Made by a program: the position numbers and the translations under genes. This document shows positions 848 through 31,814 of a stretch of DNA of 56,021 bases, one piece after another. Source of the stretch: Streptosporangiaceae bacterium (GTDB taxonomy: Bacteria; Actinomycetota; Actinomycetes; Streptosporangiales; JBOHCT01). A model generated the notes under the pieces. That model did no database searches, was not told the DNA's origin, and saw only the letters and a list, made by a program, of their open reading frames with translations. The stretch spans positions 1 to 56,021 of the forward strand of contig JBOHCT010000002.1 of the NCBI GenBank assembly GCA_050699055.1, given 5' to 3'. Within the stretch, counting starts at the first letter, position 1. Every line of letters begins with the position of its first letter.

Positions 848-867
848 ATCCCCGTTCTACCGACTAC

Positions 868-13206: not shown

Positions 13207-13785
13207 CTAGAGCGTATTCGCGCGGCGGACCGCCTCGGCGGCGTCCTCGGCCCGCTGCCGGGCTTCGACGGTGAAACGCTCATCGAGGTCGCCTAGCTCC
13301 ACGTCGATCCGGACGAGCTCGGCGGCGGACCGCGCCGCCGCCTCCGCGAGAAGCACGGCGGTCCGCGCGTCGCCCACGAGGTTGGGGTTGCCCTCCCGGG
13401 CCAGCCGGGCGCCGAGCTCGGCCACCTCAGCGGCCACGCCCGCGATGCGCAGCGGGACCTCGGCCGCGCGTTCCAGGGACTCGCGAATGCGTGCGCCGGG
13501 TCCCGACCCACTCTCGCGGGGCAGCGCGTACGCGGCGAGGACGGCGCCGTACGCGTCGGCGTCGGCGTCGGCGAGCGGTCCCGCGGCGGCGCGCAGCTCG
13601 TCCGCGCGCCCGGCGACGTCCGCGGCGTCCCCGAGCCGCCCCTCGGAGTAGCGGGCCGCCATCGCGACCAGCCCGGCCGCCATCGCCGTGACGACCGCCG
13701 CGACGCACCCACCGCCGGGCGCCGGCTCCCGCGCGGCGACCGCGTCCAGGAACTCGCCGACGGTGGAGTCCAGGTACGACGTCAC
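13207..13785 (-). CDS. fchA: Cyclodeaminase/cyclohydrolase family protein (methenyl-THF cyclohydrolase-like, FTCD C-terminal type)
   Basis: 'VGEFLDAVAAREPAPGGGCVAAVVTAMAAGLVAMAARYS' is the family signature. It immediately follows fhs. Confidence 0.8.
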   Translation of the reverse strand: MTSYLDSTVGEFLDAVAAREPAPGGGCVAAVVTAMAAGLVAMAARYSEGRLGDAADVAGRADELRAAAGPLADADADAYGAVLAAYALPRESGSGPGARIRESLERAAEVPLRIAGVAAEVAELGARLAREGNPNLVGDARTAVLLAEAAARSAAELVRIDVELGDLDERFTVEARQRAEDAAEAVRRANTL

Positions 13786-15483: not shown

Positions 15484-15597
15484 CCTTGCCCTCCTCAGCC
15501 GCCGAGTGCTCGACATCCCGACCATCCACTCTCGCACCCGGGAGAATCTGTTCGCGAACCGTCCAGGGCAACGGGCACGCTGCCAGCGGAGCGTCCC

Positions 15598-16830
15598 TTA
15601 CCCGGACACGTCCAGCCCGGCCTCGGCACGCAGGATGTCGGTCTTGTCGGTCCGCTCCCAGGTGAAATCGTGCTCGGTGCGCCCGAAGTGGCCGTACGCG
15701 GCGGTCCGCCGATAGATCGGCCGATGCAGGTCGAGGTACTGGCGGAAGGCCGCGGGACGCAGGTCGAAATGCTTCTCCACGAGAGCGGCGATCGCGGAGC
15801 GCGGGATCCTCTCCGTGCCGAACGTCTCGATCAGCGTCGACAGCGGCCGCGCGACCCCGATGGCGTACGCGAGCTGGAGCTCGAGCCGGTCCGCGACGCC
15901 GGCGGCCACGAGGTTCTTCGCGACGTACCGGGCCGCGTACGAGGCCGACCTGTCGACCTTGGAGGGGTCCTTGCCGGAGAACGCGCCGCCCCCGTGGCGC
16001 GCCATCCCCCCGTAGGTGTCGACGATGATCTTGCGACCGGTGAGACCGGAGTCGCCCACCGGCCCTCCGATGACGAAACGGCCGGTCGGGTTGACGAAGA
16101 AGCTGTCCCGCAGCGTCCGCGGGTCGTAGAGATCCGTGGGGAGCACCGGAACGACCACGTGCTCCCACAGCGCGTCGGCCAGCTTGTCCTCCACACCCTC
16201 CTCGTGCTGGGTGGAGATCAACACCTTCTCGACCGCGACCGGTACCCAGTCGCGGTAACGCACGGTCACCTGCGACTTGCCATCCGGGCGCAGGTACGGC
16301 ATGACCCCGCTCCTGCGCATATCGGCCATCCGGTGAGCCAGTCGATGGGCGAGCGCGACCGGCGCCGGCATCAGCTCCGGCGTCTCGCGCGTCGCGTAGC
16401 CGAACATCATCCCCTGATCGCCCGCTCCAACGCGGTCGTAGTCGTTGGTCACGTCTCCGTGTCCCTGGTGCTCCCGCCACTCCTGCGCGGCGTCGACCCC
16501 TCGAGCGATGTCGGGCGACTGCTTGTCCAAGGCGGTGAGGACGGCGCAGCACTTCCCGTCGAAACCGTAGACGCCGTCGTTGTAGCCGATCTCGCAGATC
16601 GTGTCGCGGGCGATCTGGGCGAAGTCGAGCACCGCGCTCGTCGTGATCTCCCCGGCCACGAGAACCAGACCGGTCGTGAGGAGGGTCTCACAGGCGACCC
16701 GCGAGCAGGGGTCCTCCCGCAGGGCGGCGTCCACGACCGCGTCGGAGATCTGGTCCGCGATCTTGTCCGGATGCCCCTCGGTGACCGACTCCGAGGTGAA
16801 CAGGAAGTCGTCGTCTTCGTGCCTGCCCAT
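15598..16830 (-). CDS. metK: S-adenosylmethionine synthetase
   Basis: '[27 protein letters not shown]', '[12 protein letters not shown]' and '[19 protein letters not shown]'. Confidence 0.97.
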
Positions 16831-17987
16831 CAGGGTGCTCCCTTCTCCGCCCGCCCCACGCCGGCGCCCTCGATGCCTGTTCCTGAACTTCGTCGGCGTC
16901 GGCCCGGTGCCCTGCCGTGAGGACCGCCCTTCGCCGCTCCGTCGCCCGCGCCGCCTCGGCCGATCTCACGCCGTACGCTCGAGGTGCCCGCGACCATCGC
17001 GCGCAGCTTGGCGCGCGCGATGGCGGGCGGGAGGTGACGCAGGCCGCAGTCGGGGTTGATCACCAGCCGCTCGGCGGGAATCACCGCCAGCGCCCGCCTG
17101 ACCCGGTCGGCGACGACGTCGGCGGTTTCCACGCCCTCGCTCTTCACGTCGATCACCCCGAGTCCGAGGGCCCGGTCCCAGGGGTAGCGGCGGAACAGCT
17201 TGAGGTCGTCGTAGCCCTTGCGCGCGAACTCCAGCACGAGCTGATCCACCCGAGCGTCCAAGACCGCGGGGAAGAGGAAGTCGTAGTGCCCCTCCCAGGA
17301 GGGCCGGGCGTAGCGGTTGCCGTAGCAGACGTGCAGTGCCCAGGTCGCGTCCACGTCACGGGTCACGATGTTGACGGCCTCGACGGCGAGCGCGATCTGC
17401 TCCGGGTACCCGGCGAGGAAAGGCTCGTCGATCTGCAGCAGCCGCGCCCCCGCCCTCGCGAGCTGTCTCGCCTCGGCGTTCAGGACCGCGGCGAGGGCCC
17501 TGACCAGGTCGGCCCTGTCGGAGTAGGCCTCGTTCCCGATCCTCCTGGACAGCGAGAAGGGCCCGGTGAAGGAGAACTTGATCGGCCGGTCGGTGCTCTC
17601 ACGGGTGAAGCGGTAATCGGCGGCCAACCCCAGGGGCATGTCCTCGCTCTCGGGGAGCGGACTGCTGACCACCGCGTCGTAGTAGTCGTAGTAGTACGAC
17701 TTCGCCCCCCGGGGGATACCGAGGCCGGGGATCTTCACGAGCAGGTAGTCGATGTCGTTGTCGCGCCGGAGCTCGCCGTCGGAGACGATATCGATCCCCG
17801 CGCGCTCCTGATCCTTGACGGCCGCCTTGATCGCGACGTCGTGGATCTCCCGCAGGTAGTCGCCGCTGATGCGCCGCTGGTGGTAGTCCGTCTTGAGGCG
17901 CTCCAGCCACTCGGGCACGGAGTACGAGCCGACCACAGTGGTCGGCAGCAGCGGCACGCCAGAGGCCTTCAACCGGCGCGGAGACAT
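16830..17987 (-). CDS. Short (core) MetE-like cobalamin-independent methyltransferase, C-terminal-domain-only type
   Basis: '[15 protein letters not shown]', '[13 protein letters not shown]', '[10 protein letters not shown]', 'HVCYGN' and '[13 protein letters not shown]' are Meth_synt_2-like motifs. A ~45-aa low-complexity tail follows. The stop overlaps the metK start (ATGA). Confidence 0.8.
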
Positions 17988-17997
17988 ACGGTTCCCG

Positions 17998-19500
17998 TCA
18001 CTCTCGCACCTGGGCGGTCAGGGTCACGATGTTGGACGCCGTCCGGTGCGCGAACGGCGCGCAGCGGACGTCGAAACCCCGCCTGGTCCCGATGTTCTCC
18101 AGGAGCGGGCCGTTGACCCAGTTGACCACGGACCCGTCGTACTTCCCCGGTCCACGGAACCCCGTCTGGTACTGGTGGAGGTCGGTGACGAACAGGTCAT
18201 GGCACTGGAGTCGGCCGTAGGGATGCAGCAGCGGGAGGGTGTCGTCGAAGCTCGCCACCGCCCCGTTGTTCACGTGCATCCGTACGTCGCCGTCGGCCTC
18301 GAGCAGAGGTCGCAGCGCCTCGCCCGTCACCCGAGGGGCTACCTCGTACAGGTCGAGGCCCTCCAGCGGGACGTACCGCTCCTCCAGGCGCAGCGCCAGC
18401 CAGGCCTGCCGCCAGAAGCGGACGGCAGCCCCCACCGCCGGGAACCTGTCGGGCAGGGCCTCGCTCATCAGCTCGGGTCCGAGCCTGAGCAGCTTCGCGA
18501 CAAGCCCGGGGACCTCGTGGGACTGGACCGACACCTGCTCCGCGATCTCTTGGGCGGCCGTGGGAGAAAGGTAGGCCCGCACGTCGATTCGGTACGCCCG
18601 CCCGCCGATGTAGGCGATCTCGTCGCTCGGCAGGTTGTCGTAGACGTTGGAGATGTAGACGAGGAACGCCTTGTACCGCAGGAACCCCAGCGACGTGGTC
18701 GGCCGGGTCGCGTCGAGCACCAGCGAGCTGACGTGGGCGGCGTGGTGGGCGACCGCGGTCTGCGCCTTGCTGAGGACGTGCGGTGAGTAGTCGCCCATGA
18801 GGTAGTGCAGGCGCCGGTAGTAGTCGGCGCCGTGCGCGCGGTCGAGGGCGACGAACTCGTCCAGCCATGTCCTGGCCTGGTTGCCGTTGCCGACGCCGAG
18901 CTCCACCACGTAGAGCTCGGCCGGCAGCGCGTCACGGGCCGCCAGGTCGTCCCAGACCCGGAACAGGTCGAGGATGAGCTCGCGTACGGCGTCCCTGTTC
19001 CTGGCGTCGCTCTCGCCGCCGGGCAGCGCCTGTTCGTACCGCTGGCCGGTCGCCTCCTCCCACAGCGACAGCGCCTGCCAGTACAGGGCGTTGAACCCCC
19101 AGACGCAGCTGTCCACGCCCGGCCGCCACGTCTCCAGGTAGCGCCGCCCGAGGGCGTCGGGACTCTGGTTCCCCCGCAACACCTCCTGGGTCACGGCCTT
19201 GATGTCCACCTCCCCGCAGCGCCGAAGGTCGACGGCGACCTCCACCCCGTCCTCATGACCCGCCGCGTCCGTGCCGAGTTCCGGGGCCGCGCCGGGCGCG
19301 AGGATGCGGCGCAGGTCGATGACCGCACGGAAGTTGTTCTTGTACTGAATCCAGTCGCACACCACACGGAGGCGGGAAAGGTCGACGGCGTCCTCGCAAG
19401 GGTCCTCGCAGAGGGCCTGGACCACCGGCCCCAGCGAGGCGGTCACGTCCATCGGCTGGGATCCGCGCAGCCGCTTGGTAGGACGGACGTCAACGTGCAC
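17998..19500 (-). CDS. Large atypical class I SAM-dependent methyltransferase (500 aa)
   Basis: GTG start with a GGAGGGAG Shine-Dalgarno. Motif I 'VVELGVGNGNQ' and later 'VYISNVYDNLPSDE'. To my eye it distantly resembles the MidA/NDUFAF7 (DUF185) layout. Confidence 0.6.
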   Translation of the reverse strand: MHVDVRPTKRLRGSQPMDVTASLGPVVQALCEDPCEDAVDLSRLRVVCDWIQYKNNFRAVIDLRRILAPGAAPELGTDAAGHEDGVEVAVDLRRCGEVDIKAVTQEVLRGNQSPDALGRRYLETWRPGVDSCVWGFNALYWQALSLWEEATGQRYEQALPGGESDARNRDAVRELILDLFRVWDDLAARDALPAELYVVELGVGNGNQARTWLDEFVALDRAHGADYYRRLHYLMGDYSPHVLSKAQTAVAHHAAHVSSLVLDATRPTTSLGFLRYKAFLVYISNVYDNLPSDEIAYIGGRAYRIDVRAYLSPTAAQEIAEQVSVQSHEVPGLVAKLLRLGPELMSEALPDRFPAVGAAVRFWRQAWLALRLEERYVPLEGLDLYEVAPRVTGEALRPLLEADGDVRMHVNNGAVASFDDTLPLLHPYGRLQCHDLFVTDLHQYQTGFRGPGKYDGSVVNWVNGPLLENIGTRRGFDVRCAPFAHRTASNIVTLTAQVRE

Positions 19501-20527
19501 GGCTGCTCCCTCCGGCCGTGACGGCCTCGCCGGCCTCTCCCGCGCCTCCGGCGGCTTCGACCCGGGCGCGCCGGAGGATCTCGGGGACGGCCGTCTCGTG
19601 GCCGAACGACATCACGTGGATACCCGCGACGCCCGGGATCGCCTTCAGGCGCTCGATGGTCTCGACGCAGACGCGCATGCCCTCCTCGGCGACACGGTCG
19701 GCGGGCACGCCGCGGAGGCGACGGGCGACGCTGTCGGGGACGTACAGACCCGCGACCTTGGTGCTCATGTGGTCCAGCGCCCGAAGCGAACGGATCGGGC
19801 CCACCCCGGCGAGGATTCCGCAGCGTTCGTGCAGCCCGAGGTCGCGGACCTCGGCCATCCAGCGCTCGAACGCGTCCACGTCGAAGACGAACTGGGTCTG
19901 GGCGAACCGCGCCCCCGCCGCGACCTTCTTGGCCAGGCGCCGGGCACGGAAATGTACGGGCGGGGCGAACGGGTTCTCGACGGCGCCGACGAACACTTGC
20001 GGCGGTGGCCGGAGTCGGCTCCCCGACAGCAGCCTGCCCTGGTCCCGCATCGTGCGCGCCGCCCACACCAGCTGAACGCTGTCGAGGTCGAAGACCGGCT
20101 TCGCCCCAGGGTGGTCGCCGAACCGTGGATGGTCACCGGTGAGCAGCAGCGCGTTGGGGATGCCGAGGGCCGCGGCGGACAGCAGGTCGGACTGGAGTGC
20201 CAGCCTGTTCCTGTCGCGGCAGGTGAGCTGCATGACCGGCTCGACGCCCACCTCCAGCGCCAGCAGGCTGCCGGCCCAGCTTGACAGGCGCACGAACGCG
20301 CTCTGGTTGTCGGTGACGTTCGCGGCGTCCACCCACCCGCGGAGCGCCGCGGCCTTGCGGCGGATCACCTCGGCGTCCGAGCCGCGCGGGGGGCCGATCT
20401 CCGCGGTCACGACGAACCGTCCGGAGTCGAGGGCGGCGCGGAGCCGACCTGGCCCAGATGATCGCCCGGCACCGCCCGAGCCGTTACCGGGGGACCGCCC
20501 GTCGACCTCGTCCGGCACCAGCGTCAT
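19490..20527 (-). CDS. metF: Methylenetetrahydrofolate reductase (MetF)
   Basis: 'FVVTAEIGPPRG', 'ANVTDNQSAFVRLSS' and 'VMQLTCRDRNRLALQSDLLSAAALGIPNALLLTGDHP'. Confidence 0.9.
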   Translation of the reverse strand: MTLVPDEVDGRSPGNGSGGAGRSSGPGRLRAALDSGRFVVTAEIGPPRGSDAEVIRRKAAALRGWVDAANVTDNQSAFVRLSSWAGSLLALEVGVEPVMQLTCRDRNRLALQSDLLSAAALGIPNALLLTGDHPRFGDHPGAKPVFDLDSVQLVWAARTMRDQGRLLSGSRLRPPPQVFVGAVENPFAPPVHFRARRLAKKVAAGARFAQTQFVFDVDAFERWMAEVRDLGLHERCGILAGVGPIRSLRALDHMSTKVAGLYVPDSVARRLRGVPADRVAEEGMRVCVETIERLKAIPGVAGIHVMSFGHETAVPEILRRARVEAAGGAGEAGEAVTAGGSSRAR

Positions 20528-21576: not shown

Positions 21577-22632
21577 TCATTCAATCGAAACTGTCACCGG
21601 CCTGCTCTGCCACGTCCATCCCGGACAGACCGAGGAGAAACGCCCGACCGGTCCGCCGGCCGCTATCACCAAGAGGTCGTCCTCGCTCGTGACCGCCCGC
21701 ACAGGCCCGGCCACCGAGCCTGCCGACTTTTCGAGGACCTCGGCGGGAACGCGGGCGCCATCGGCGATGAACTTCTTCACCTCGGCCTTCGTCCACGACG
21801 CCTCCCGGAGGATGTCCCGATGCTCCTTGGCGAACGCGACCAGCTGCGGGGCGTTCCTCCGGCCCTCGACGCCGCTGCCGACCGCCGCGCTCGCGACGGT
21901 ATACGCCACCGCGGAAAGGATGGCCTCGGGGCTGCTGTCCTGCACACTGACCTGGCGCGGCGCCTCACAGCCCAGCATCGTGACCGCGCTCTGACCGGCG
22001 GTCATGCCGCGCTCGACATGCAGCGGCTCCCACGGAGAGTCCTCCTCGTCCTCCGCGATGCAGTACGAGTACTTTCCGGGATGGCCCAACGTCGCACGAT
22101 CCAAGACACCCGGCACGGCTTTCGCCACATTCTGGAGAATCAGCCGCAACGCCCTACCAATGGTGGCGTTGGCCCTTACGCCATGGCCGAAGACGTTGCC
22201 TCTCGCGTTCATTCCGATGCGCTCGCGAATCGGGCCACTCACGATCGCCAACGGCGCCGCTCCCTTCGTACTGCACGCCACGCCGTACAGCGCGAAGCGA
22301 TCGGCCAGCATCGCCTCGACCGCCGCGAGCACCACCGGGCCGTACTCCGGGCGGCATCCGGCCAGCACCGCGTTCGCGGCGACGTGACCGACCGTCGCCT
22401 CGACGTCGCCCGGCGGGACCGTCCCGACCACCGTGTCCGACGTCCTGCCCATGGCGGCCACCATCGCCGCCACGTTCTCAGCCGTCGGAGGCAGCACGGG
22501 CAATCCGTCGCAGAGATCCGACGCGAGGTATTCCTCCACAATCGCCGCCGCGTCAGTGCGCCGCGCGTCGCTCGCTCCGTCCACGGTCGGATCACCGTCA
22601 CTTTCATGATCGCGAACACTTTTCCACCCCAC
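21577..22632 (-). CDS. Uncharacterised conserved protein, paralog P1 of 3
   Basis: Shares 'DGLPVLPPT', 'LAGCRPEYGPVVLAA', 'STKGAAPL..VSGPIR', 'RANATIGRALRL', 'HPGKYSYC', 'EDEEDSPWEPLHV' with 22698-23756 and 25805-26929. Start is GTG 22632 or GTG 22584. Confidence 0.75.
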   Translation of the reverse strand: MGWKSVRDHESDGDPTVDGASDARRTDAAAIVEEYLASDLCDGLPVLPPTAENVAAMVAAMGRTSDTVVGTVPPGDVEATVGHVAANAVLAGCRPEYGPVVLAAVEAMLADRFALYGVACSTKGAAPLAIVSGPIRERIGMNARGNVFGHGVRANATIGRALRLILQNVAKAVPGVLDRATLGHPGKYSYCIAEDEEDSPWEPLHVERGMTAGQSAVTMLGCEAPRQVSVQDSSPEAILSAVAYTVASAAVGSGVEGRRNAPQLVAFAKEHRDILREASWTKAEVKKFIADGARVPAEVLEKSAGSVAGPVRAVTSEDDLLVIAAGGPVGRFSSVCPGWTWQSRPVTVSIE

Positions 22633-22697: not shown

Positions 22698-23756
22698 TCA
22701 GGGGGCGCGGGCCTGGATCTGGCGCTGCCCGTGGCGCCCGTACTCGAGCGAAGGGGAGCCGTAGCACACCATGGACACGATCCCCGCGCCGCCGGCCGCC
22801 ACGATGGTGACGTCGTCCGCCGACCCGAAGAGGGGCACCCAGTCGTCCGGCTGATAGCCGTCGCGCTCGCGCAGGTGGGGGAGGCTGTCGGCACGGCCGG
22901 GCGGCTGGCCGGCTTCGAGGTCCACGGCGGGCCGGCCCGCGCGTTCGTACAGGAAGTCGCGAACGTCGGACTTGCTCCAACCGGCCTCCGCGACGGCGGC
23001 GCGATGGTCGGGGCCGAGGAGCACGAAAGCCTCGGACCGGCCCGTCATGCCGAAGCTCGCCAGCGTGCTCATGACGTCAGCGATGCGGGTGAGCGCGACC
23101 TCGGGATACTTGGGGCTGGCGACCGCGCTCACGTAACGGGGCGCCTCCGAGCCCATGACCGTGACCGTGCTGTCCTCCGGTGAATATCCCGACGAGACGT
23201 GCAGCGGCTCCCAGGGGCTGCCCTCCTCGTCCTCGCCGACCGTGTAGGTGTACTTGCCGGCGTGGCCGAAGCAGGAGTGGTCGGTCACCCCGGGCACCGA
23301 GTTGCCGACGTTGATCAACAGCAGCCTGATCGCCCGCCCGATCGTGGCGTTCGCGCGGGTGCCCGGGCCCAACACGTTCTTGCCGCAGTTCAGCACGATC
23401 CGCTGACGGATGGGCCCATTGACGACGACGAGTGGAGCGTTCCCCTTCGTGCTCGTCGCCAGATGGTCGAGGTGGAAACTCGACTCGAGCATGACCTCCA
23501 CGGCGGCCAGGACCACCGGCATGTACTCCGGCAGGCAGCCCGCCATCGTCGCGTTGACCGCGACATCACGCACGGCCGCTTCCTCGTACGTCGGAGGAAG
23601 CAGACCCACGGCCTCGTCCGCGTCCCTGCCGGAGGCGGCGATCATGGCCTCGGCGCGTTCCACGCTCGGTGGGACGACAGGAAGCCCGTCTGTCGCGCCC
23701 TGTTCGATGTAGCCGTCCACCATGGAGATGAAGTCACTCAAAGAGCCAGCAGCCAT
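22698..23756 (-). CDS. Uncharacterised conserved protein, paralog P2 of 3
   Basis: 352 aa with 'DGLPVVPPS', 'MAGCLPEYMPVVLAA', 'STKGNAPLVVVNGPIR', 'RANATIGRAIRL' and 'EDEEGSPWEPLHV'. Confidence 0.8.
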   Translation of the reverse strand: MAAGSLSDFISMVDGYIEQGATDGLPVVPPSVERAEAMIAASGRDADEAVGLLPPTYEEAAVRDVAVNATMAGCLPEYMPVVLAAVEVMLESSFHLDHLATSTKGNAPLVVVNGPIRQRIVLNCGKNVLGPGTRANATIGRAIRLLLINVGNSVPGVTDHSCFGHAGKYTYTVGEDEEGSPWEPLHVSSGYSPEDSTVTVMGSEAPRYVSAVASPKYPEVALTRIADVMSTLASFGMTGRSEAFVLLGPDHRAAVAEAGWSKSDVRDFLYERAGRPAVDLEAGQPPGRADSLPHLRERDGYQPDDWVPLFGSADDVTIVAAGGAGIVSMVCYGSPSLEYGRHGQRQIQARAP

Positions 23757-23828: not shown

Positions 23829-24362
23829 CTACTCGGCCCCGGTCGCGATCGACACCACCTGCGGCAGCGCCTCCTCGGCACGGGCCCACAGGCCGTCGTC
23901 GTCCAGCGACCCCAGCGGATGCTTGACCACCGCGAACCTGAACCCCTCGGCACCGCGCATCGTGGCGAGCTGCGCGGCGCCATGGCTGAACGGCTCCGTG
24001 CAGACGGCCACCCCGGGGATGCCGTGCCGCTCGATCTCTATCGCGTCGTGCAAACTGCACGCACTGCAGGAGCCTCAGTCACCGATGCCCGTCACGATCA
24101 GACGCGAGCGGGCCGCCAATCCCGCGATCAGTTCCGCCGGCGCCGGCTTCGACAGTGCCTCCTTGCCCATGGGTGCCAGCTCGCCTATCCCGTGCCGCTC
24201 CTTCAGCAACGTCCCGAGAAAGTCGAGAAAACGCGCGGCGTTCGGCTTGTAGTTGTCGAGCAGACCGACGGTGACACCCCGCAGGGAGTCCAGCCGAGGA
24301 GCGGACGTGACAGCGACCGCCTTCTTCGGCTTCGGACTGAAAAGCTCCTCATCCCATACCAT
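23829..24362 (-). CDS. UGSC-motif protein, putative selenoprotein (in-frame TGA at 24075-24077)
   Basis: Two same-frame ORFs (24075-24362 and 23829-24053) are joined through TGA plus 7 codons. The joined product aligns over its full length with the CGSC paralog at 26929-27477, and the TGA falls on that paralog's Cys. An AAGGA Shine-Dalgarno precedes the ATG at 24362. Confidence 0.6.
24043..24064 (-). promoter_or_regulatory. Candidate SECIS-like hairpin downstream of the TGA
   Basis: The mRNA reads GUG-CGUGC-AGUUU-GCACG-A-CGC. It starts 11 nt after the UGA and forms 8 bp with one bulged A and a G-U-containing apical loop. Confidence 0.4.
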
Positions 24363-24409: not shown

Positions 24410-24631
24410 CTACTCGTCCGGATATGTCAGGTCGATGGAGTGCTCCGGCACCCCGAGAGCCTGCTGGAAGAACCTGCGCATCAGGTCCTTCGGCACCAGG
24501 CAGTCCGGGCATGCCTCGGATGTCGCGGAGATGCGGACGCCGACCCGCCCGCCGCCCTCGTCGACCTCGACCACGTAGCCGTCCGCGCCCAAGGATGACC
24601 GCAGCTCCCGCAGACCCGCCTCGTCGACCAT
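24410..24631 (-). CDS. Small NifU-like / CxxC protein (73 aa)
   Basis: Start ATG 24631 with a GGGAG Shine-Dalgarno. 'DGYVVEVDEGGGRVGVRISATSEACPDCLVPKDLM' resembles the NifU C-terminal (Nfu) layout. Confidence 0.45.
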   Translation of the reverse strand: MVDEAGLRELRSSLGADGYVVEVDEGGGRVGVRISATSEACPDCLVPKDLMRRFFQQALGVPEHSIDLTYPDE

Positions 24632-24683: not shown

Positions 24684-25808
24684 TCAACCCATGCCGTCAC
24701 CACTCTCGTGGATGACGACACCGCGGATGTTCTTCCCCTCCCGCATGTCGCGATAGCCGTCGTTGACCTGGTCGAGCCGGTACCGCCGGGTAATCAGCTC
24801 ATCGAGCTTGAGGTCACCGGATCGGTACAGACCCAGAAGCCTCGGGATGTCGTAGAGCGGGTTCGCCGCGCCGAAAAGAGCGCCCTGGACCCGCTTCTGC
24901 CAACCGGTCAGGGGACCGCCCGGCAGCTGTACGACCATCTCGCCCCGACTGCCGACCCCGGTGACGGTCACCTGGCTCGTCTTGCCGACGATGTCCACCC
25001 CGCGCCGCACGACCTCCGCGTTCATCTCGCCCACGGTCAGGATCGCGTGATCGGCGAGCTGTCCACGGGTGAGCTCGACGACCAGCTCGTGAGCCTCGTC
25101 GGGGTCGGACGTGGCGTGCGTGGCACCGAACTTCTGCGCCGACTCCAGCTTGAACGCCACCGGATCGACCGCGACGATGTTCTTCGCGCCCGCGTAGCTC
25201 GCTCCCTGAACGGCGTTGATGCCGACGCCCCCGACACCGAAGACCACGACGGTGTCGCCGGGCCGCACGCCCGCCGCGTAGACGGCGGAGCCCCACCCCG
25301 TCGTCACGCCGCAGCCGACCAGGGCAGCCACGTCGAACGGGATGTCCTCGCCCACCTTCACGCACGACCACTCGGAGAGCACGGCATACCGCGAGAACGT
25401 CCCGAGCACACAGAAGGCACCCAGATCCCGATCGCCTTCATGGAAGCGGTACGTGCCGTCGGTCAGACAGCCCACGGCGGCGTTCAGCCCCGCGTCGCAC
25501 ATGTTCTGATGGCCGGTCGAGCAGTAACGGCAGGTCCCGCAGACAGGGACGAACGAGCACACGATGTGGTCGCCCACCCCCACCCGCGTGACACCCGGAC
25601 CGACCGCCTCGACAACGCCGGCACCCTCGTGCCCGCCGACCATGGGCAGCCGGACCGGCGCGGCCCCGGTCCGCGCGTGCTCGTCGGAGTGGCACAGGCC
25701 GGCGGCCGCGAACCGAACGAGCACCTCCCGTGCCTTCGGCGGATCGAGGGACAGCTCGGTCACGTCCCACTGGCCAGGTCGGTGCAGGACCGCCGCCCGA
25801 GTCTTCAC
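24684..25808 (-). CDS. Zn-dependent alcohol dehydrogenase (class III / NDMA-dependent-ADH-like), paralog 1
   Basis: GTG start at 25808 overlaps the P3 stop (GTGA). 'GLCHSDEH', 'GHEGAGVVEAVG', 'CGTCRYCSTGHQNMC', 'VFGVGGVGINAVQGA' and the C-terminal 'GYRDMREGKNIRGVVIH'. Confidence 0.9.
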   Translation of the reverse strand: MKTRAAVLHRPGQWDVTELSLDPPKAREVLVRFAAAGLCHSDEHARTGAAPVRLPMVGGHEGAGVVEAVGPGVTRVGVGDHIVCSFVPVCGTCRYCSTGHQNMCDAGLNAAVGCLTDGTYRFHEGDRDLGAFCVLGTFSRYAVLSEWSCVKVGEDIPFDVAALVGCGVTTGWGSAVYAAGVRPGDTVVVFGVGGVGINAVQGASYAGAKNIVAVDPVAFKLESAQKFGATHATSDPDEAHELVVELTRGQLADHAILTVGEMNAEVVRRGVDIVGKTSQVTVTGVGSRGEMVVQLPGGPLTGWQKRVQGALFGAANPLYDIPRLLGLYRSGDLKLDELITRRYRLDQVNDGYRDMREGKNIRGVVIHESGDGMG

Positions 25809-26929
25809 GTCGCCACTCCCCAATCTGCGGATCCCGCCGCGGTTCCCGCTGCTCGGGCCGCGGCACGGTCGCTCGAGACCTCCTCCACGGGGATCGCGGT
25901 CCCCGACCACTCACCGAAGACCCGCACGACCATCGAGATGGCCGCGTTCTTGGCCCCGGCGACGACGATCGGCACGTGCCGGGGCGAGGGGAGAATGGGC
26001 GAGAAATCGTCCGCGTCGACGTCCGACGGCTCGCCGGCGTCCGTACCGGTCGCTTTCTTGTGCTGTGCGGCCTTACCGGCCCGTTCGAGGGCGGTGAAGG
26101 TGCATCCGCAGTGCTCCATGAACCAGGCCTGGACGTCGGCCTTGGCGTACCCGGCGCCGGCGAGAAGCTGGGCATGCTCGGGGCTCAGGACCACCGCACA
26201 CGAGGTGTCCCGGAAGATCAGCGCGCCCGTGCGCGAGATCGTGTCAGCGAAGTCCCACAGAACCTGCTCGGCGTCGTGGGTGTGCCGGTTGTCGACGAAC
26301 TCACAGGTACGGGTCAGCGTCGCCGACACCGCGCTCGAGCCCGACGGCTGCCCCCCGTCCACGCACAGCGGCTCCCACGGACTCTCCTCCTCGTTCTCGG
26401 CGACACAGACCGACCAACGCCCAGGGAGACCCTGTGTGGCCTGCTCGAAGACGTGCGGACGGACGCCGAAGGCGTTGCGGACGATGAGCCCGACGGCGCG
26501 GGCGACGGTGGCGTTCGCCCGGAACCCCGGCCCGAACACCCCGCCGCGGCTGTTGAACCCGAGGCCGGCGCGGATCGGACCGTTCACCACGATGAGCGGC
26601 GACGGGCCGCTGGTACTCTGCCACCCACCTCCCTCCGCCGCCCGCTCGCGCATCAGCGCCTCGAACGCGGCCAACACCACAGGGAAGTACTCGGGCCGAC
26701 AGCCCGCCATCGCGGCGTTGATGGCCGCCAGCTCGACCGTGCACTCGCCGTTCAGATGTGTGAGACGGCCGATGACCTCGTCGGGAGCGCGGCTCGTGCG
26801 ACCCAGGAAGCGGTCGACGAGCGGCTGTGAGGCGGGGGCGAGCGGCAGCCCGTCCGACCAGTCCTGCTCGTAGCAGTATTCGATCACTCGCTGGGCGGCG
26901 TCCGGGTCGAGGTCGGAAGCCTCCGCCAT
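25805..26929 (-). CDS. Uncharacterised conserved protein, paralog P3 of 3
   Basis: Start ATG 26929 overlaps the CGSC gene stop (ATGA). 'SDGLPLAPAS', 'MAGCRPEYFPVVLAA', 'PLIVVNGPIR', 'RANATVARAVGL' and 'ENEEESPWEPLCV'. The ORF-track N-terminal extension is rejected. Confidence 0.8.
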   Translation of the reverse strand: MAEASDLDPDAAQRVIEYCYEQDWSDGLPLAPASQPLVDRFLGRTSRAPDEVIGRLTHLNGECTVELAAINAAMAGCRPEYFPVVLAAFEALMRERAAEGGGWQSTSGPSPLIVVNGPIRAGLGFNSRGGVFGPGFRANATVARAVGLIVRNAFGVRPHVFEQATQGLPGRWSVCVAENEEESPWEPLCVDGGQPSGSSAVSATLTRTCEFVDNRHTHDAEQVLWDFADTISRTGALIFRDTSCAVVLSPEHAQLLAGAGYAKADVQAWFMEHCGCTFTALERAGKAAQHKKATGTDAGEPSDVDADDFSPILPSPRHVPIVVAGAKNAAISMVVRVFGEWSGTAIPVEEVSSDRAAARAAGTAAGSADWGVAT

Positions 26930-27477
26930 CAGGCAGCCCCTCGCTGCTCCACGGCGACCATGAGGGATACGACGTCGGGCAGGGCACGCCCGGCACGCTC
27001 GCGCACCTCGTCCGGGGTGAGCACGGCGACCGGGTGTGGCGTCGTAGCGTAGCGGTAGCCTGGCGCGCCCTGGACGCGGGCCATCGCGTCGCTGGTCGCC
27101 GTGAAGGCATCGCTGCAGACCACCGCGCTGGGGATGCCGCGCCCTTCGAAGAGCAGACCGTCCGCGACCGCCGCCGCGCTGCACGACCCGCAGTCGCCCA
27201 CACCCGTGACGACGACATCACACTGGCCAGCCATCTCCTCGACGACCTCGTCGGGGGCGGGGGCGGTGATCGGGCCCGTCTTCCTCCGGGTCACCACGTC
27301 CGCGGCGCCCTCGCGGTCCACCAGCAGCCGACCCAGCTCCTCGAGAAAGAGATCGGCGTTCCGTTTGGTGTTGACCAGCAGCCCCACCGTCGCTCCGCGA
27401 AGGTCCGGGCGCCGCGACGCCTGCACCGCCCGCTTGCTGCTGACCTTTCCCGTTGGATCCAGAACCGCGTTCGCCAT
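26929..27477 (-). CDS. CGSC-motif protein (Cys paralog of the UGSC protein)
   Basis: Start ATG 27477 lies 9 nt after a perfect AAGGAG. '...RGATVGLLVNTKRNADLFLEELG...CDVVVTGVGDCGSCSAAAV...GRGIPSAVVCSDAF'. Confidence 0.8.
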   Translation of the reverse strand: MANAVLDPTGKVSSKRAVQASRRPDLRGATVGLLVNTKRNADLFLEELGRLLVDREGAADVVTRRKTGPITAPAPDEVVEEMAGQCDVVVTGVGDCGSCSAAAVADGLLFEGRGIPSAVVCSDAFTATSDAMARVQGAPGYRYATTPHPVAVLTPDEVRERAGRALPDVVSLMVAVEQRGAA

Positions 27478-28606: not shown

Positions 28607-29713
28607 TTAGCGCGCGCTGGTGGTGGCCCGGGTGGGCTCGTGGTCTTCCTCCTGCCCCGCAGGAAAATGACACGCCACGGCATGGTCGTCCCCGAGGATG
28701 CGCAGCGGCGGCTCCTCGACCGCGCAGCGCTCCTGCGCGCGGGGGCAACGGGTGCGAAATCGGCACCCGCTCGGCGGGTCGATCGGGGAGGGGGGCTCCC
28801 CACTGATCGCCCCCTCCGCTCTCGCCCTCGACGAGGTGGGGTCGGGATCGGGGATGGAGGCGAGGAGCGCCAGCGTGTAGGGGTGCAGGGGTCCCCGGTA
28901 GAGAGACTCGGCGGGACCGATCTCGCAGAGCTTGCCGAGGTACATGACCGCGACCCGGTCGCTCACCTGCTTGACGAGCGTGAGGTCGTGCGCGATGAAC
29001 AGGTAGGCGAGACCGAGTTCGGTACGTAGCTCCTCGAAGAGGTTGAGCACCTGCGCCTGGATCAGGACGTCGAGCGACGAGACCGGCTCGTCGCAGACGA
29101 TGAGGTCCGGGCCGAGGGTGAGCGCGCGGGCGATGGCGACCCGTTGGCACTGGCCACCCGAGAGCGCCCGAGGCCGGCGGCTGCCGTAGGTGCGCGGGTC
29201 GAGGCCGACGAGGTCGAGCACCGTGTCCACCCGGCGCCGGCGTTCCGCCCTGCTACCCACCTTGTAGGCGACAAGCGGCTCCTCGACGATCTGCGACACC
29301 CGCCACTTCGGGTTGAGCGAACCGAACGGGTCCTGAAAGACCATCTGCATGTGACGACGGGCCTCGAGGAGCTGACGCCGGCCCAGTTTGACGAGGTCCT
29401 TTCCACGGAAGAACACCTCACCCGACTTCGGCTTCGGAGCCTGCAACAACGACCTCGCCAGCGTCGACTTCCCGGAGCCCGTCTCGCCGACGACGCCCAC
29501 GGTCTCGCCGGACCGTACGTCGAAGGACACGTCGGAGACGGCCTGCACGACGCCGCCCTTGACGCCTCCGCTGCCGCGGACGACGAACTCCTGCACGACG
29601 TGCCGGGCTTCGAGCAAGGCCTCGCCCCGCAGCGCCGGGTGAGCGGCGGCGCCTCGCTCTTTGTCGGGCTCTCTCTCGCCCCGCTCGTTCTCGTTGGACG
29701 CTCTAGGCTTCAC
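28607..29713 (-). CDS. Peptide/nickel ABC transporter ATP-binding protein (DppF/OppF-like)
   Basis: Walker A 'GETGSGKST', signature 'LSGGQCQR', Walker B 'LIVCDEPVSSLD', and an oligopeptide C-terminal domain with 'PPSGCRFRTRCP'. The GTG start overlaps the dppD-like stop. Confidence 0.85.
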   Translation of the reverse strand: MKPRASNENERGEREPDKERGAAAHPALRGEALLEARHVVQEFVVRGSGGVKGGVVQAVSDVSFDVRSGETVGVVGETGSGKSTLARSLLQAPKPKSGEVFFRGKDLVKLGRRQLLEARRHMQMVFQDPFGSLNPKWRVSQIVEEPLVAYKVGSRAERRRRVDTVLDLVGLDPRTYGSRRPRALSGGQCQRVAIARALTLGPDLIVCDEPVSSLDVLIQAQVLNLFEELRTELGLAYLFIAHDLTLVKQVSDRVAVMYLGKLCEIGPAESLYRGPLHPYTLALLASIPDPDPTSSRARAEGAISGEPPSPIDPPSGCRFRTRCPRAQERCAVEEPPLRILGDDHAVACHFPAGQEEDHEPTRATTSAR

Positions 29714-30858
29714 TGCGGCTCTCCGTCTTCGCAGGGGTACCAGCAAGCCCACCAGTGGGCTGGTTCGTGCTCTTCGAAGGGCGGGGACGCCTCCTGACAG
29801 GTGTCGCGTGCGCTCGGGCAGCGGGGGGCGAACGGGCAGCCGACCGCGAGCGTCGTGAGGTCGGGAGGCCGACCGTGGACGACGGGGAGGGGGGAATGCG
29901 GGGGCCGCTCGATCCGTGGAACCGCTTCGAGGAGGACCTTGGTATAGGGCATTCGGACGTGCGCGAAGAGCTGCCGTGTCGGCGCGCGTTCCACGGCCCG
30001 CCCGGCGTACATCACGACGATCTCGTCGGCGTAGCTGGCCGCCAGCCCGAGGTCGTGACTGATCATGATGAGACCCATGCCGAGTCGCCCCTGAAGCTCG
30101 AGGAGCAGGTCCATGATCTGCGCCTGCGTCGTGACGTCAAGCGCGGTGGTGGCTTCGTCGGCGATGAGCAGCCGCGGACGTGAGGCGAGCGCGATCGCGA
30201 TCACCACGCGCTGCCGCATTCCTCCGGAGAGCTGATGGGGGTACTCAGCGAACCGCTGCTCGGGGGCGGGCAAGCGAACGAGCCGGAGCAGCTCGACGGC
30301 CCGCTCCTGTGCCGCTCGCCTGCCAGCGGCAGCAGCGGTACCAGCGGTACCAGCGGCACCAGCGGCACCAGCGGCACCAGCGGCACCAGCGGCACCAGCG
30401 GCACCAGCGGCACCAGCGGCACCAGCGGCACCAGCGGCACCAGCGGCACCGGTGGCACTGTGCGCGCGGATCGCCTCGGTGATCTGTGCCCCGACCCGCA
30501 TGGTCGGGTTGAGTGAGCGGGCAGGGTCCTGAAACACCATCGCGAGGTCGGCTCCGCGGTGCCGCCGCATCTCCTTGTCGGACAGCCCGAGCAGCTCCTC
30601 GTCATCGAAGCGGGCGGAACCGGTGACCGAAGCGGTCTCCGGCAGCAGCCCCATCAAGGCGCGGGCGCCCACGGTCTTCCCCGACCCCGACTCGCCGACG
30701 ATCGCGAGTGTCTGCCCGTCGAGGAGCTCGTAGCTGAGCCCGTTCACGGCCCACACCTGCCGGTCACGCAGGCGGAAGCGGACCCAGAGGTCACGAACCT
30801 TGAGCAGCGGCGCCGTGGGTGAGCCTGAGTAACCCCGACCCTCATCCGACAACGACAT
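29710..30858 (-). CDS. Peptide/nickel ABC transporter ATP-binding protein (DppD/OppD-like) with an internal (GAA)11(GTA)2 repeat insertion
   Basis: 'GESGSGKTV', 'LSGGMRQR', '[12 protein letters not shown]' and 'GCPFAPRCP'. Start is ATG 30858 (GGGGAG Shine-Dalgarno) or 30886. Confidence 0.85.
30334..30450. repeat. 13 x 9-bp perfect/near-perfect tandem repeat (AGCGGYACC) inside the dppD-like CDS
   Basis: Counted directly: 2 x agcggtacc followed by 11 x agcggcacc. In frame, encoding Gly-Ala-Ala / Gly-Thr-Ala triplets. Confidence 0.95.
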
Positions 30859-30920
30859 GGCACGGCTCCCCGACATCCCGAGGGTCGACTCGGCCGAAGG
30901 TTTCCGCGAACGGTTGATAC

Positions 30921-31814
30921 TCACTGGACGTTCCACCGCGCACGCAGGCCGTCCCCGAGAAGGTTGAACGCGACGACGGCGACGAAAAGGAAGGCGCTGG
31001 GGAAGAGCACCAGCCTCGGACTGGCAGAGAGGCTCTGCTGCCCCTGGTAGATCATGTTGCCCCAACTCGGGTGCGGAGGTGGGATACCGAGGCCGAGAAA
31101 GCTGAGCGCGCCTTCGAGAACGATGATGATGCCCATCCCGAGCAGGCCGAACGTCAAGAGCTGGGGAGCGATGTTGGGGGCGATGTGGCGGAAAAGGACG
31201 CGCCGAGTCCTCGTTCCCGACAGCTTCGCCGCCACCATGAACGTCTGCTCGCGCAGCCGGAGCGTGGCGGCCCGGGAGACGCGGGCGTTCGCCGGCACGC
31301 TGAAGAATACGAGAGCGAAGATCGTGTGACTCTTGCTCGGCCCGAGGCCCTGGGCGATCGCCAGCGCGAGGACGAGGGAGGGGAAGGCGATCAGCACGTC
31401 GAAGACCCGCATGATGATCGGGTCGACCTTCCCTCCCCAGTAGGCGGCGAAGGCCCCGAGGGAGCCCCCGATCAGGAGGCCGATCACTTGCACGGCGAGC
31501 GCGATCTCGAGCGAGGCACGGCCGCCGTACAGCAGGCGCGACCATATGTCGTTGCCGACCGGGCCGGTCCCGAGAAAATGCCCCGGTGACAGTGGCGGGA
31601 GGTTGGCGTCGATGACGTTTCCGCCGATCGGCTTCGGTACGGGGTAGACGACCGGCCAGAGGAAGCACGCCCCGAAGACCAGGACCAGGACACCCGCTGG
31701 AACCGCGGTCTCCAGCGACCGCGTCCATCCGCGCGCGCGGCGCGCCGGCCTCGCGGCCGCCGCCTCCATCTCGAGACTCGACGGTATGCGGGCGTCAGGC
31801 GGAACGCTGGCCAT
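30921..31814 (-). CDS. Peptide ABC transporter permease (DppC/OppC-like)
   Basis: 'HFLGTGPVGNDIWSRLLYGGRASL' and 'AAKLSGTRTRRVLFRHIAPNI'. Confidence 0.85.
   Translation of the reverse strand: MASVPPDARIPSSLEMEAAAARPARRARGWTRSLETAVPAGVLVLVFGACFLWPVVYPVPKPIGGNVIDANLPPLSPGHFLGTGPVGNDIWSRLLYGGRASLEIALAVQVIGLLIGGSLGAFAAYWGGKVDPIIMRVFDVLIAFPSLVLALAIAQGLGPSKSHTIFALVFFSVPANARVSRAATLRLREQTFMVAAKLSGTRTRRVLFRHIAPNIAPQLLTFGLLGMGIIIVLEGALSFLGLGIPPPHPSWGNMIYQGQQSLSASPRLVLFPSAFLFVAVVAFNLLGDGLRARWNVQ

What the first reader, a model, noticed from the sequence alone, without database searches (positions are those of the whole stretch)
23829..24362. In-frame TGA falls exactly where a co-located paralog has Cys: candidate selenocysteine (UGSC) recoding
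The ORFs at 24075-24362 (95 aa) and 23829-24053 (74 aa) share one minus-strand frame. They are separated only by TGA (24075-24077) and 7 sense codons. Read through, they give a 177-aa protein: '...SRLIVTGIGD-[TGA]-GSCSACSLHDAIEIERHGIPGVAVCTEPF...'. This aligns end to end with the 182-aa ORF at 26929-27477 ('...CDVVVTGVGD-C-GSCSAAAVADGLLFEGRGIPSAVVCSDAF...'). The TGA therefore sits on the first Cys of a CxxC-type redox motif, giving U-x-x-C. Eleven nt after the UGA, the mRNA can fold GUG-CGUGC-AGUUU-GCACG-A-CGC (24064-24043). That is 8 bp with a bulged A and a G-U in the apical loop. The spacing and shape resemble bacterial SECIS elements. As far as I recall, 'UGSC-containing' proteins were reported as a selenoprotein family of unknown function in metagenomic selenoproteome surveys. 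Sec usage in high-GC actinobacteria is uncommon, so an annotation pipeline would probably split or drop this gene.
Basis: partly seen in the sequence, partly recalled or inferred. Interest (0 to 1): 0.85.

Follow-up and report, generated by a model that had tools for sequence, protein, structure and literature searches.

The report
UGSC-family selenoprotein gene with SECIS

Summary
On the minus strand, 24362..23829 is one reading frame broken only by TGA at 24077..24075. The joined 177-aa product matches the curated UGSC (seleno)protein models over its full length. The TGA sits opposite the first Cys of GD-C-GSC in the neighbouring paralog.

The comparative evidence is strong:
- At least 119 genomes carry TGA at this same motif position, each followed by about 80 conserved codons.
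- Six close orthologs, from a Streptosporangiales MAG and several metagenome assemblies, all keep the TGA.
- In three of these sequences, dN/dS after the TGA (0.18-0.26) matches dN/dS before it (0.17-0.22).
- The hairpin that starts at the 11th nt after UGA is shared by the whole family, and 5 of its 8 pairs show compensatory changes. In the close orthologs its synonymous sites are frozen (p=0.002). Three Cys forms lack it.
- TGA is the normal stop in this window (28 of 40 genes), so the recoding is site-specific.

Not tested: selA/B/C/D lie outside this 56-kb contig.

UGSC has been a published selenoprotein family since the mid-2000s, so novelty is low. Side results:
- The predicted fold is flavodoxin-like, not thioredoxin-like.
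- There is weak but recurrent similarity to the Sec motif of PrdB/GrdB.
- The gene is tightly linked, and sometimes fused, to a very large unannotated ~350-aa protein family.

The parts
23829..24362 (-). UGSC-family selenoprotein gene. It encodes 177 aa including Sec at residue 96, from ATG at 24362 to the TAG stop at 23831..23829.
   Evidence: Translation. NF041046 scores 135 bits against a cut-off of 125, and PF24696 scores 177 bits. Orthologs of the same length and start are found in L121, L122, L125b, L126 and L127.
24075..24077 (-). UGA codon read as selenocysteine, the first residue of the U-G-S-C motif.
   Evidence: It aligns with Cys96 of the paralog and with the invariant Cys of 120 Cys-form homologs. 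TGA is present at this position in at least 119 genomes and in six close orthologs. dN/dS downstream is 0.18-0.26.
24043..24064 (-). SECIS-like hairpin GUGCGUGC-AGUUU-GCACG-A-CGC. The core stem is CGUGC(A)/(U)GCACG, the apical loop contains GU, and 10 nt separate it from the UGA.
   Evidence: Fold energy -9.8 kcal/mol. Across the family, 91.6% of cells are paired, 5 of 8 pairs show compensatory change and 0 of 500 shuffles reach this. The hairpin is nucleotide-identical in six orthologs apart from the loop U/G and one G-C to G-U change. Synonymous variation is 1/7 inside versus 61/81 outside, p=0.0024.
22698..23756 (-). Partner protein A (352 aa), a member of a very large unannotated family that is linked and sometimes fused to UGSC genes.
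   Evidence: No Pfam or NCBIfam hit. At least 7891 homologs exist, some carrying PF24696. A homolog is adjacent to UGSC-Sec in 90 of 119 loci. Orthologs at 77-84% identity lie in L121 and L122.
21577..22632 (-). Partner protein B, a paralog of A at 47% identity. The start is uncertain: 22632, or 22584 in the Logan gene call.
   Evidence: The UGSC-Sec / partner A / partner B order is conserved in L121, L122, L125, L126 and L127.
24410..24631 (-). Small 73-aa protein with a conserved A-C-P/A-D/E-C-L (CxxC) motif, immediately upstream of the UGSC-Sec gene.
   Evidence: Homologs lie next to UGSC genes in L121, L127, L124 (Saccharomonospora amisosensis) and L123. It was not found in the other loci.
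26929..27477 (-). Cys-form UGSC paralog (182 aa, GD-C-GSC).
   Evidence: NF041046 scores 159.8 bits and PF24696 208.5 bits. The AF2 model has pLDDT 92. Its ortholog in L125 carries TGA.
25805..26929 (-). Partner protein C (about 374 aa), a paralog of A and B that directly follows the Cys-form UGSC gene.
   Evidence: 35-39% identical to A and B. Gene call in L001.

Best explanation
The region 24362..23829 (minus strand) is one gene for a 177-residue UGSC-family selenoprotein. The ribosome reads the UGA at 24077..24075 as selenocysteine. A bacterial-type SECIS hairpin (24064..24043) lies in the coding sequence just after the UGA and recruits SelB with Sec-tRNA(Sec); this recruitment step is inferred, not shown.

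The product is predicted to be a single flavodoxin-like alpha/beta domain. Sec96 and Cys99 (U-G-S-C) sit at the N-terminus of a helix, the usual position for a redox-active pair. The most likely chemistry, held at low confidence, is a selenol/selenenylsulfide cycle. It would be carried out together with the conserved ~350-aa partner proteins encoded next to the gene, and here perhaps also with the small CxxC protein upstream.
For: Shown here:
- The joined protein matches the curated UGSC models over its full length, above cut-off.
- The TGA aligns with an invariant Cys in 120 homologs and in the in-window paralog.
- A TGA-specific motif scan hit at least 119 species-representative genomes. In every locus that was not cut off, the frame continues about 80 codons with conserved sequence. 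Ser after the TGA is encoded by both UCN and AGY codons, which shows selection at the amino-acid level.
- Six orthologs from independent assemblies all have TGA.
- By the Nei-Gojobori method, dN/dS after the TGA is 0.18-0.26 against 0.17-0.22 before it, at dS 0.47-0.94.
- The hairpin is conserved with compensatory changes, for example CAUGG/CCAUG and CGAGC/GCUCG, and its synonymous sites are frozen.
- Three Cys forms lack the hairpin, and the nearest Cys forms have Asn where Sec forms have the stem-forming Cys codon.
- TGA is the ordinary stop of 28 of 40 genes in the window, and this is the only in-frame TGA inside a gene.
- The AF2 model (pLDDT 92) is one compact domain, with the Sec/Cys site between strand 88-94 and helix 97-112.

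Literature: UGSC-containing proteins are an established predicted selenoprotein family (PMC2398784, PMC5029168, PMC13188914).
Against: - The Sec machinery (selA, selB, selC, selD) was not seen. It is absent from this 56-kb contig, and the rest of the assembly could not be searched.
- No protein-level evidence exists for this gene.
- The hairpin alone is not energetically exceptional (z -0.54).
- Rfam has no matching SECIS model.
- The hairpin overlaps conserved codons, so part of its conservation comes from the protein sequence.
- The biochemical function, and the idea that the partner proteins form a complex with UGSC, are inferred only from gene linkage and fusions.
Confidence: 0.9

Rival explanations
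1. The gene is a pseudogene. A TGC/TGT to TGA nonsense mutation truncated a Cys-form UGSC gene, and the downstream part is no longer translated.
For: The closest full-length database homologs (54-56% identity) are all Cys forms. The Sec machinery was not verified.
Against: The same TGA is kept in six orthologs that have diverged to dS 0.5-0.9, with downstream dN/dS of 0.18-0.26 and no frameshifts or further stops. The Sec-form-specific codons and hairpin are present, and they are absent from the nearest Cys forms.
Confidence: 0.02
2. There are two separate small genes, of 95 aa and 74 aa, each translated on its own and perhaps assembling into a split UGSC domain.
For: Every gene caller produced exactly these two ORFs. 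A TTG or GTG start candidate follows 7 codons after the TGA.
Against: The seven codons between the TGA and the candidate start are conserved as amino acids through synonymous changes (GGC/GGG/GGA, UCC/UCG, and UCN/AGY across the family), so they are translated. No ribosome-binding site precedes the TTG. All Cys-form homologs are single chains. The break would fall inside one beta-alpha unit of a compact domain.
Confidence: 0.02
3. The UGA is read through with a standard amino acid (Cys, Trp or another), either by near-cognate decoding or because UGA is reassigned in this organism, with no selenium involved.
For: Nothing tested here tells Sec apart from another residue at the UGA. Selenium incorporation was not tested.
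Against: TGA ends 28 of 40 genes in the window, and no other gene has an internal TGA, so there is no reassignment. A conserved, covarying hairpin at SECIS spacing is the signature of SelB-dependent insertion. The family is known for Sec/Cys alternation at this site (PMC2398784).
Confidence: 0.05

Closest known systems
UGSC-containing (seleno)protein family (NCBIfam NF041046, Pfam PF24696), first reported in marine metagenome selenoproteome surveys
   Same: Full-length HMM match above the curated cut-off. It shares the U/C-G-S-C motif, a length of about 180 aa and Sec/Cys alternation at the same residue. The downstream hairpin is shared with at least 109 distinct Sec-form genes.
   Different: This gene belongs to a small actinobacterial clade (window, L121, L122, L125-L128). 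It is only about 40% identical to most Sec forms and 54% identical to the nearest one outside the clade (L073). It has Ala instead of Ser before the stem, which replaces one stem pair with a bulged-A lower stem. Here it sits beside a Cys-form paralog and three partner paralogs.
Bacterial SECIS elements, with E. coli fdhF as the type example (recalled from memory: a hairpin about 11 nt after UGA whose apical-loop G/U is bound by SelB)
   Same: The hairpin starts at the 11th nt after the UGA and has GU in a small apical loop. Its UGCAGUxUGCA core closely resembles the fdhF UGCAGGUCUGCA core as I recall it. It lies inside the coding sequence.
   Different: SelB binding was not tested. There is no bulged U in the upper stem. 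The element is constrained jointly with the codons S-C-S-L/V-H-D.
Selenoprotein B components of the Stickland reductases (GrdB, GrdF, GrdH, PrdB; TIGR01917, TIGR01918, TIGR04483)
   Same: There is weak but recurrent local similarity around the Sec motif. Of 78 UGSC proteins, 40 hit PrdB (best E 3.8e-5) and 36 hit GrdB (best 2.4e-4). The window protein hits GrdB model positions 343-373 with residues 93-123. Both families have a UxxC motif.
   Different: Scores are far below the family cut-offs (17.8 versus 602 bits). The similarity covers only about 30 residues. UGSC is less than half the length of GrdB. No GrdE/PrdA-type pyruvoyl proprotein, GrdA or GrdC/D was found among the window's predicted genes.

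Membership tests
UGSC family (seleno)protein (NF041046 / PF24696) | Whole-protein HMM score above the curated cut-off | tested here: met
   NF041046 scores 135 bits against a cut-off of 125, covering profile positions 2-145 of 147. PF24696 scores 177 bits against 25, covering 2-171 of 172. U was entered as C for the search.
UGSC family (seleno)protein (NF041046 / PF24696) | G-D-[U/C]-G-S-C-S motif after a T-G-[IV] strand, in a protein of about 180 aa | tested here: met
   The window has VTGIGD-U-GSCS in a 177-aa protein. The motif is invariant in 120 homologs.
Bacterial selenoprotein gene (SelB/SECIS-dependent UGA recoding) | In-frame UGA aligned with Cys in homologs, and conserved as UGA in orthologs | tested here: met
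Bacterial selenoprotein gene (SelB/SECIS-dependent UGA recoding) | Coding constraint continues downstream of the UGA | tested here: met
   dN/dS is 0.18-0.26 downstream and 0.17-0.22 upstream. The HMM match runs through to the C-terminus.
Bacterial selenoprotein gene (SelB/SECIS-dependent UGA recoding) | Conserved stem-loop just 3' of the UGA, with G/U in the apical loop | tested here: met
   Family-wide covariation. The hairpin is nucleotide-identical in orthologs and its synonymous sites are suppressed. It is absent from 3 Cys forms. The spacing and loop criteria come from my memory of bSECISearch and fdhF. No dedicated SECIS predictor was available, and Rfam gave no hit.
Bacterial selenoprotein gene (SelB/SECIS-dependent UGA recoding) | selA, selB, selC (tRNA-Sec) and selD present in the same genome | not testable with these tools
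   None are in the 56-kb contig. The window is a whole contig of a draft assembly whose other contigs could not be reached. No tRNA-Sec lies in the 60 related loci scanned.
Bacterial selenoprotein gene (SelB/SECIS-dependent UGA recoding) | Selenium actually incorporated into the protein | not testable with these tools
   This needs 75Se labelling or mass spectrometry.
GrdB/PrdB selenoprotein B family | Whole-protein match to TIGR01917, TIGR01918 or TIGR04483 above cut-off | tested here: not met
   17.8 bits against a cut-off of 602.2. Only a local stretch of about 30 residues matches.
GrdB/PrdB selenoprotein B family | Encoded with a pyruvoyl proprotein (GrdE/PrdA) and the other reductase components | tested here: not met
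   No such domains were found among the window's predicted genes. The partner proteins have no detectable family.
Thioredoxin-fold redox proteins (as suggested for UGSC in PMC2398784) | Thioredoxin-like fold | tested here: not met
   The AF2 model of the paralog (pLDDT 92) has five alternating strand-helix units. Foldseek returns only generic flavodoxin- or Rossmann-like hits with TM below 0.5 and no thioredoxins. This rests on prediction only.

The most novel reading that the evidence does not exclude
UGSC and its ~350-aa partner, plus in some lineages a small CxxC protein, may form a widespread and completely uncharacterised two- or three-component selenoenzyme. It would be distantly related, at the Sec motif, to the PrdB/GrdB 'protein B' subunits of the Stickland reductases, but it is used by aerobic soil and marine bacteria (Actinomycetota, Chloroflexota, Alphaproteobacteria). 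On this reading the partner family (at least 7891 proteins, no Pfam or NCBIfam model, one invariant Cys in an NAxMAGC motif, no close solved fold) would be the substrate-binding or catalytic subunit. The Sec would act as the nucleophile in a reductive cleavage or thiol-relay reaction.
Probability: 0.2. Interest if true: 0.6.

Novelty: new member of a known kind. Interest (0 to 1): 0.3.

Why it matters
For annotation, this gene and all its orthologs are split into two fragments by standard gene callers. They should be joined with a Sec translation exception. The result also places UGSC selenoproteins in a Streptosporangiales-like lineage, which implies that those organisms decode Sec.

For biology, the recoding event itself is ordinary. 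What is worth following up is that UGSC is an abundant selenoprotein family with no known function. The gene linkage found here (partner family, fusions, small CxxC protein), the flavodoxin-like predicted fold and the weak PrdB/GrdB link give concrete starting points. One is a cultured organism, Robertmurraya sp. 2P01SA (locus L006), that has a UGSC(Sec)-partner fusion.

Tried and rejected
- **Rfam:** the gathering-threshold search of the whole window and the permissive search of 23950-24150 gave no SECIS or other credible family.
- **tRNA search:** ARAGORN found no tRNA in the window and no tRNA-Sec in 60 related loci.
- **Sec machinery:** Pfam or NCBIfam scans of 40 predicted genes in the window found no selA, selB or selD.
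- **Source genome:** the window is a complete 56,021-bp NCBI contig. The four of its proteins found in the protein collection are singletons at 90% identity, so the rest of the assembly could not be reached. The only exact DNA match is a Logan contig of run SRR27067734, probably from the same data.
- **Solved structures, by sequence:** searches with single sequences and with profiles for UGSC and for the partner gave nothing significant.
- **Fold search, UGSC model:** Foldseek gave only generic alpha/beta hits.
- **Fold search, partner model:** the best hit, the class I fumarate hydratase alpha subunit, is weak (TM 0.26-0.30, rmsd 15 A) and I do not rely on it.
- **One-carbon link:** I considered a functional link between UGSC and the surrounding folate, methionine and one-carbon genes. 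I rejected it as unsupported, because the close orthologs L121 and L122 keep only the UGSC/partner A/partner B triad in quite different surroundings. Formate dehydrogenase-like neighbours recur in only 12-15 loci.
- **Other recoding:** genome-wide UGA reassignment and further in-frame TGAs were checked and excluded for this window.

Full report
**1. The observation**

The minus-strand frame from ATG 24362 to TAG 23831..23829 has one internal stop, TGA at 24077..24075. Seven sense codons (GSCSACS) lie between that TGA and the TTG at 24053 that opens the mechanically listed 74-aa ORF. Gene calls on an identical Logan contig give the same 95-aa and 74-aa pieces.

Read through, the product is 177 aa. 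It aligns with the 182-aa ORF 27477..26929 over residues 13-177 at 41% identity (E 9e-41). The TGA lies opposite the first Cys of GD-C-GSC.

A scan of all six frames looked for in-frame stops with coding-type GC3 on both sides. It finds only this case inside a gene; the other three hits are junctions between neighbouring genes.

**2. What the gene is**

With Cys entered for the TGA, the joined protein scores 135 bits on NCBIfam NF041046 'UGSC family (seleno)protein' (curated cut-off 125). It scores 177 bits on Pfam PF24696, and both matches are essentially full length. The paralog scores higher still.

The literature describes UGSC-containing proteins as a predicted selenoprotein family:
- 255 Sec forms and 21 Cys forms in the GOS marine survey (PMC2398784);
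- 33 genes in 26 sequenced organisms in a 2016 survey (PMC5029168);
- a listing under NF041046 in a 2026 review (PMC13188914).

No function is known for the family.

**3. Is the TGA translated?**

These are mostly Dehalococcoidia/Chloroflexota, Alphaproteobacteria, Eremiobacterota and Acidobacteriota, with one Actinomycetota MAG and one Robertmurraya isolate.

In every locus that was not cut off, the frame continues for about 80 codons after the TGA with conserved sequence. The Ser after the TGA is encoded by both UCN and AGY codons across the family. That pattern is a mark of selection on the amino acid, not on the nucleotides.

All 120 best full-length protein homologs in the protein database are Cys forms, at 56% identity or less. 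This is expected if gene callers split the Sec forms.

Close orthologs were found through the neighbouring partner protein. The best hit, at 84% identity, comes from a Streptosporangiales MAG. The orthologous loci are:
- L121, from GCA_009379995.1;
- L122, from an ENA forest-soil assembly;
- L125b and L126, from Logan run SRR32177952;
- L127, from Logan run SRR26467383;
- L128, from a JGI metagenome.

All six carry TGA at the same codon, and the five that are complete have gene lengths within ten codons of the window's.

Nei-Gojobori estimates among the window, L121 and L122 give dN/dS of 0.18-0.26 for the 81 codons after the TGA. The 95 codons before it give 0.17-0.22, at dS 0.47-0.94. The downstream part is therefore under the same protein-level purifying selection as the upstream part. 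This rules out a recent nonsense mutation.

In this window TGA is the ordinary stop codon of 28 of 40 predicted genes. The recoding is therefore specific to this site.

**4. The hairpin**

Folded alone, the 48 nt from the UGA onwards are no more stable than shuffled sequence (z -0.54). The case for the hairpin rests on comparison.

RNAfold of 110 distinct Sec-form sequences shows almost the same hairpin in nearly all of them. It is (U)CGUGC-AGUNU-GCACG(A), starting 12-13 nt after the UGA.

On the ungapped alignment A1 of 109 of these sequences, I counted pairs for an 8-bp stem (columns 15-22 with 26-33):
- 91.6% of cells form a standard pair.
- 5 of 8 pairs show changes on both sides, for example CAUGG/CCAUG in L006, CGAGC/GCUCG in L046 and L094, and GUCGGCC/GGCCGAC in L015.
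- None of 500 shuffles reaches the observed values.
- Registers slid by 1-3 columns pair in only 12-57% of cells.

In the actinobacterial clade, the 22-nt hairpin is nucleotide-identical in all seven sequences. The only differences are the loop U/G (Leu/Val) and one GAC-to-GAU change that turns a G-C pair into G-U.

Among six of these sequences (L128, which is truncated, was left out), I took codons whose amino acid is invariant and counted synonymous variation. It is seen at 1 of 7 hairpin codons but at 61 of 81 codons elsewhere (Fisher p = 0.0024). This points to an RNA-level constraint beyond the protein-level one.

Three Cys-form genes form only 2-4 of the 6 core pairs in the same register. 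They are the window paralog, P0022 and P0038 from Saccharomonospora amisosensis. The nearest Cys forms read GDCGSCS-TNS-VHD, where Sec forms read S/A-C-S-L/V-HD. The stem-forming UGC codon is therefore peculiar to Sec forms.

The spacing, the small GU-containing apical loop and the UGCAGUxUGCA core resemble the E. coli fdhF SECIS as I remember it. That comparison is from memory, not a test.

Rfam holds no matching model, and no dedicated SECIS predictor was available.

**5. What could not be tested**

No selA, selB, selD or tRNA-Sec lies in the window. The window is a complete 56,021-bp contig of a draft assembly, and I had no way to search its other contigs.

The organism is inferred to be an actinobacterium near a Streptosporangiales MAG. 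The grounds are 68% GC, an F420-dependent LLM oxidoreductase, an NDMA-dependent alcohol dehydrogenase of the TIGR03989 type, and best hits with shared gene order to that MAG.

Sec decoding is patchy but documented in this phylum. SelA, SelB and SelD, together with Sec-containing FdhA, are expressed in Actinomycetospora chiangmaiensis (PMC7176365). The machinery occurs in mycobacteria (PMC13449736). Horizontal transfer of the Sec trait among actinobacteria has been reported (PMC5029168).

**6. How it may work**

AlphaFold2 on the Cys paralog with 77 homologs gives a confident model (pLDDT 92, pTM 0.86). It has five alternating strand-helix units, which is a flavodoxin-like sandwich. The Sec/Cys residue sits between strand 88-94 and helix 97-112, at a helix N-terminus.

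Foldseek against the PDB finds only generic Rossmann- or flavodoxin-like matches (TM below 0.5) and no thioredoxins. The thioredoxin-like fold suggested in 2008 (PMC2398784) is therefore not supported by this prediction.

Scanning 78 UGSC proteins against NCBIfam shows weak but recurrent hits to Stickland reductase selenoprotein B models:
- PrdB: 40 of 78, best E 3.8e-5;
- GrdB: 36 of 78, best E 2.4e-4;
- also GrdF, GrdH and 'various_sel_PB'.

For the window protein, the GrdB hit covers residues 93-123, the Sec motif and the following helix. This is a lead for remote homology, not family membership. Scores are far below the cut-offs, and no GrdE/PrdA-like gene is present.

**7. Linked genes**

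Each UGSC gene in the window is followed by members of an unannotated ~350-aa family. Three paralogs are present: 25805-26929, 22698-23756 and 21577-22632, at 35-47% identity to one another.

The family has at least 7891 database members, all labelled 'hypothetical', and no Pfam or NCBIfam model. A member lies next to UGSC-Sec in 90 of 119 loci, and next to the Cys forms in L123 and L124.

Fusions exist. In Robertmurraya (L006) the frame runs 443 codons past the TGA into a partner domain. Several database proteins of 411-429 aa combine PF24696 with the partner. This probably corresponds to the 'UGSC/Unknown_1' fusion noted in PMC2398784.

The partner's AF2 model is confident (pLDDT 91.8). However, its best PDB match, the class I fumarate hydratase alpha subunit, is weak (TM 0.26-0.30). 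The family has a single invariant Cys, in an NAxMAGC motif.

A small 73-aa protein with a conserved CxxC motif lies just upstream (24410-24631). It recurs next to UGSC genes in L121, L127, L124 and L123, but not elsewhere.

From this I infer, at low confidence, a redox module. In it the U-x-x-C pair would cycle between selenol/thiol and selenenylsulfide while acting on, or with, the partner protein.

The surrounding folate, methionine and one-carbon genes are PurU, FTHFS, MTHFR, MetE-like, MetK and a homocysteine methyltransferase-MTHFR fusion. They are not conserved around the close orthologs, so I do not link them to UGSC function.

**8. Verdict**

This is a selenocysteine-encoding UGA with a SECIS element in a UGSC-family gene, and standard gene callers split it.

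The finding is a new member, in a little-sampled actinobacterial clade, of a selenoprotein family that is already published and already has curated models. A specialist would not be surprised. The main residual uncertainty is the unverified Sec machinery. The more interesting open question is what the UGSC-partner module does.

Noticed in passing
window 26929-27477 (-); L125 286-831: The window's Cys-form UGSC paralog has an ortholog in L125 (Logan SRR32177952) that carries TGA at the same codon. That ortholog has its own, different hairpin (GUCCGCG...CGCGGAC). The window's Cys form keeps only a degenerate version of it (5 of 7 pairs by eye). This suggests a recent Sec/Cys switch in this paralog lineage, with the hairpin decaying or still forming.
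   Followed up: partly
window 21577-22632, 22698-23756, 25805-26929 (-): Three paralogs of a very large protein family (at least 7891 database members) that has no Pfam or NCBIfam model. The AlphaFold model is confident, but no close solved structure exists. The family has one invariant Cys in an NAxMAGC motif. It is linked, and sometimes fused, to UGSC genes across phyla.
   Followed up: partly
window 24410-24631 (-): A small 73-aa ORF with a conserved A-C-P/A-D/E-C-L (CxxC) motif and an IDL(T/V)YP tail. It recurs beside UGSC genes in actinobacterial loci L121, L127 and L124 (Saccharomonospora amisosensis) and in L123. It has no family assignment.
   Followed up: partly
L006 (Robertmurraya sp. 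2P01SA, NZ_CP154845.1), around 595-1941 (-): A cultured Bacillaceae isolate encodes a UGSC(Sec)-partner fusion. The frame continues 443 codons past the TGA, and its hairpin is a compensatory variant (CAUGG/CCAUG). This organism could serve as an experimental system.
   Followed up: no
window 13207-20527 and 34823-38054 (-): A dense set of one-carbon and methionine-cycle genes lies on one strand. It comprises FTCD_C-like, formate-THF ligase, MetK, a MetE-like catalytic domain, MTHFR plus a separate MTHFR C-terminal (DUF5981) gene, PurU-like, and a homocysteine S-methyltransferase-MTHFR fusion next to a PucR-type regulator. It looks like a methyl-group or C1 catabolic island. It is not conserved around the UGSC orthologs.
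   Followed up: partly
window 17998-19500 (-): A 500-aa protein with no family. It shows only faint similarity to SAM-dependent methyltransferases (E 0.016-0.26) and lies between the MTHFR and MetE-like genes.
   Followed up: no
window 29710-31728 (-): An Opp/Dpp-type ABC ATPase of unusual length (672 aa). Its ABC_tran domain match is stretched over 200 residues and contains a segment that hits the Pfam Collagen repeat (residues 426-469). This is probably a Gly-rich insertion in the nucleotide-binding domain.
   Followed up: no
L002-L120 (Dehalococcoidia loci, e.g. L041 1041-3887, L089 1064-2827): In 12-15 of the 119 Sec-form loci, NAD-dependent formate dehydrogenase-like genes (FdhA/NuoG-like, NuoF-like, NuoE-like) lie within 8 kb of UGSC-Sec. 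This may be lineage-specific gene order rather than a functional link.
   Followed up: no
window 13786 (-): The formate-THF ligase gene and the downstream FTCD_C-like gene are in the same frame, separated by a single TGA. The ligase matches its Pfam model to the last position, so I read this as two adjacent genes and not as a second recoding site.
   Followed up: partly
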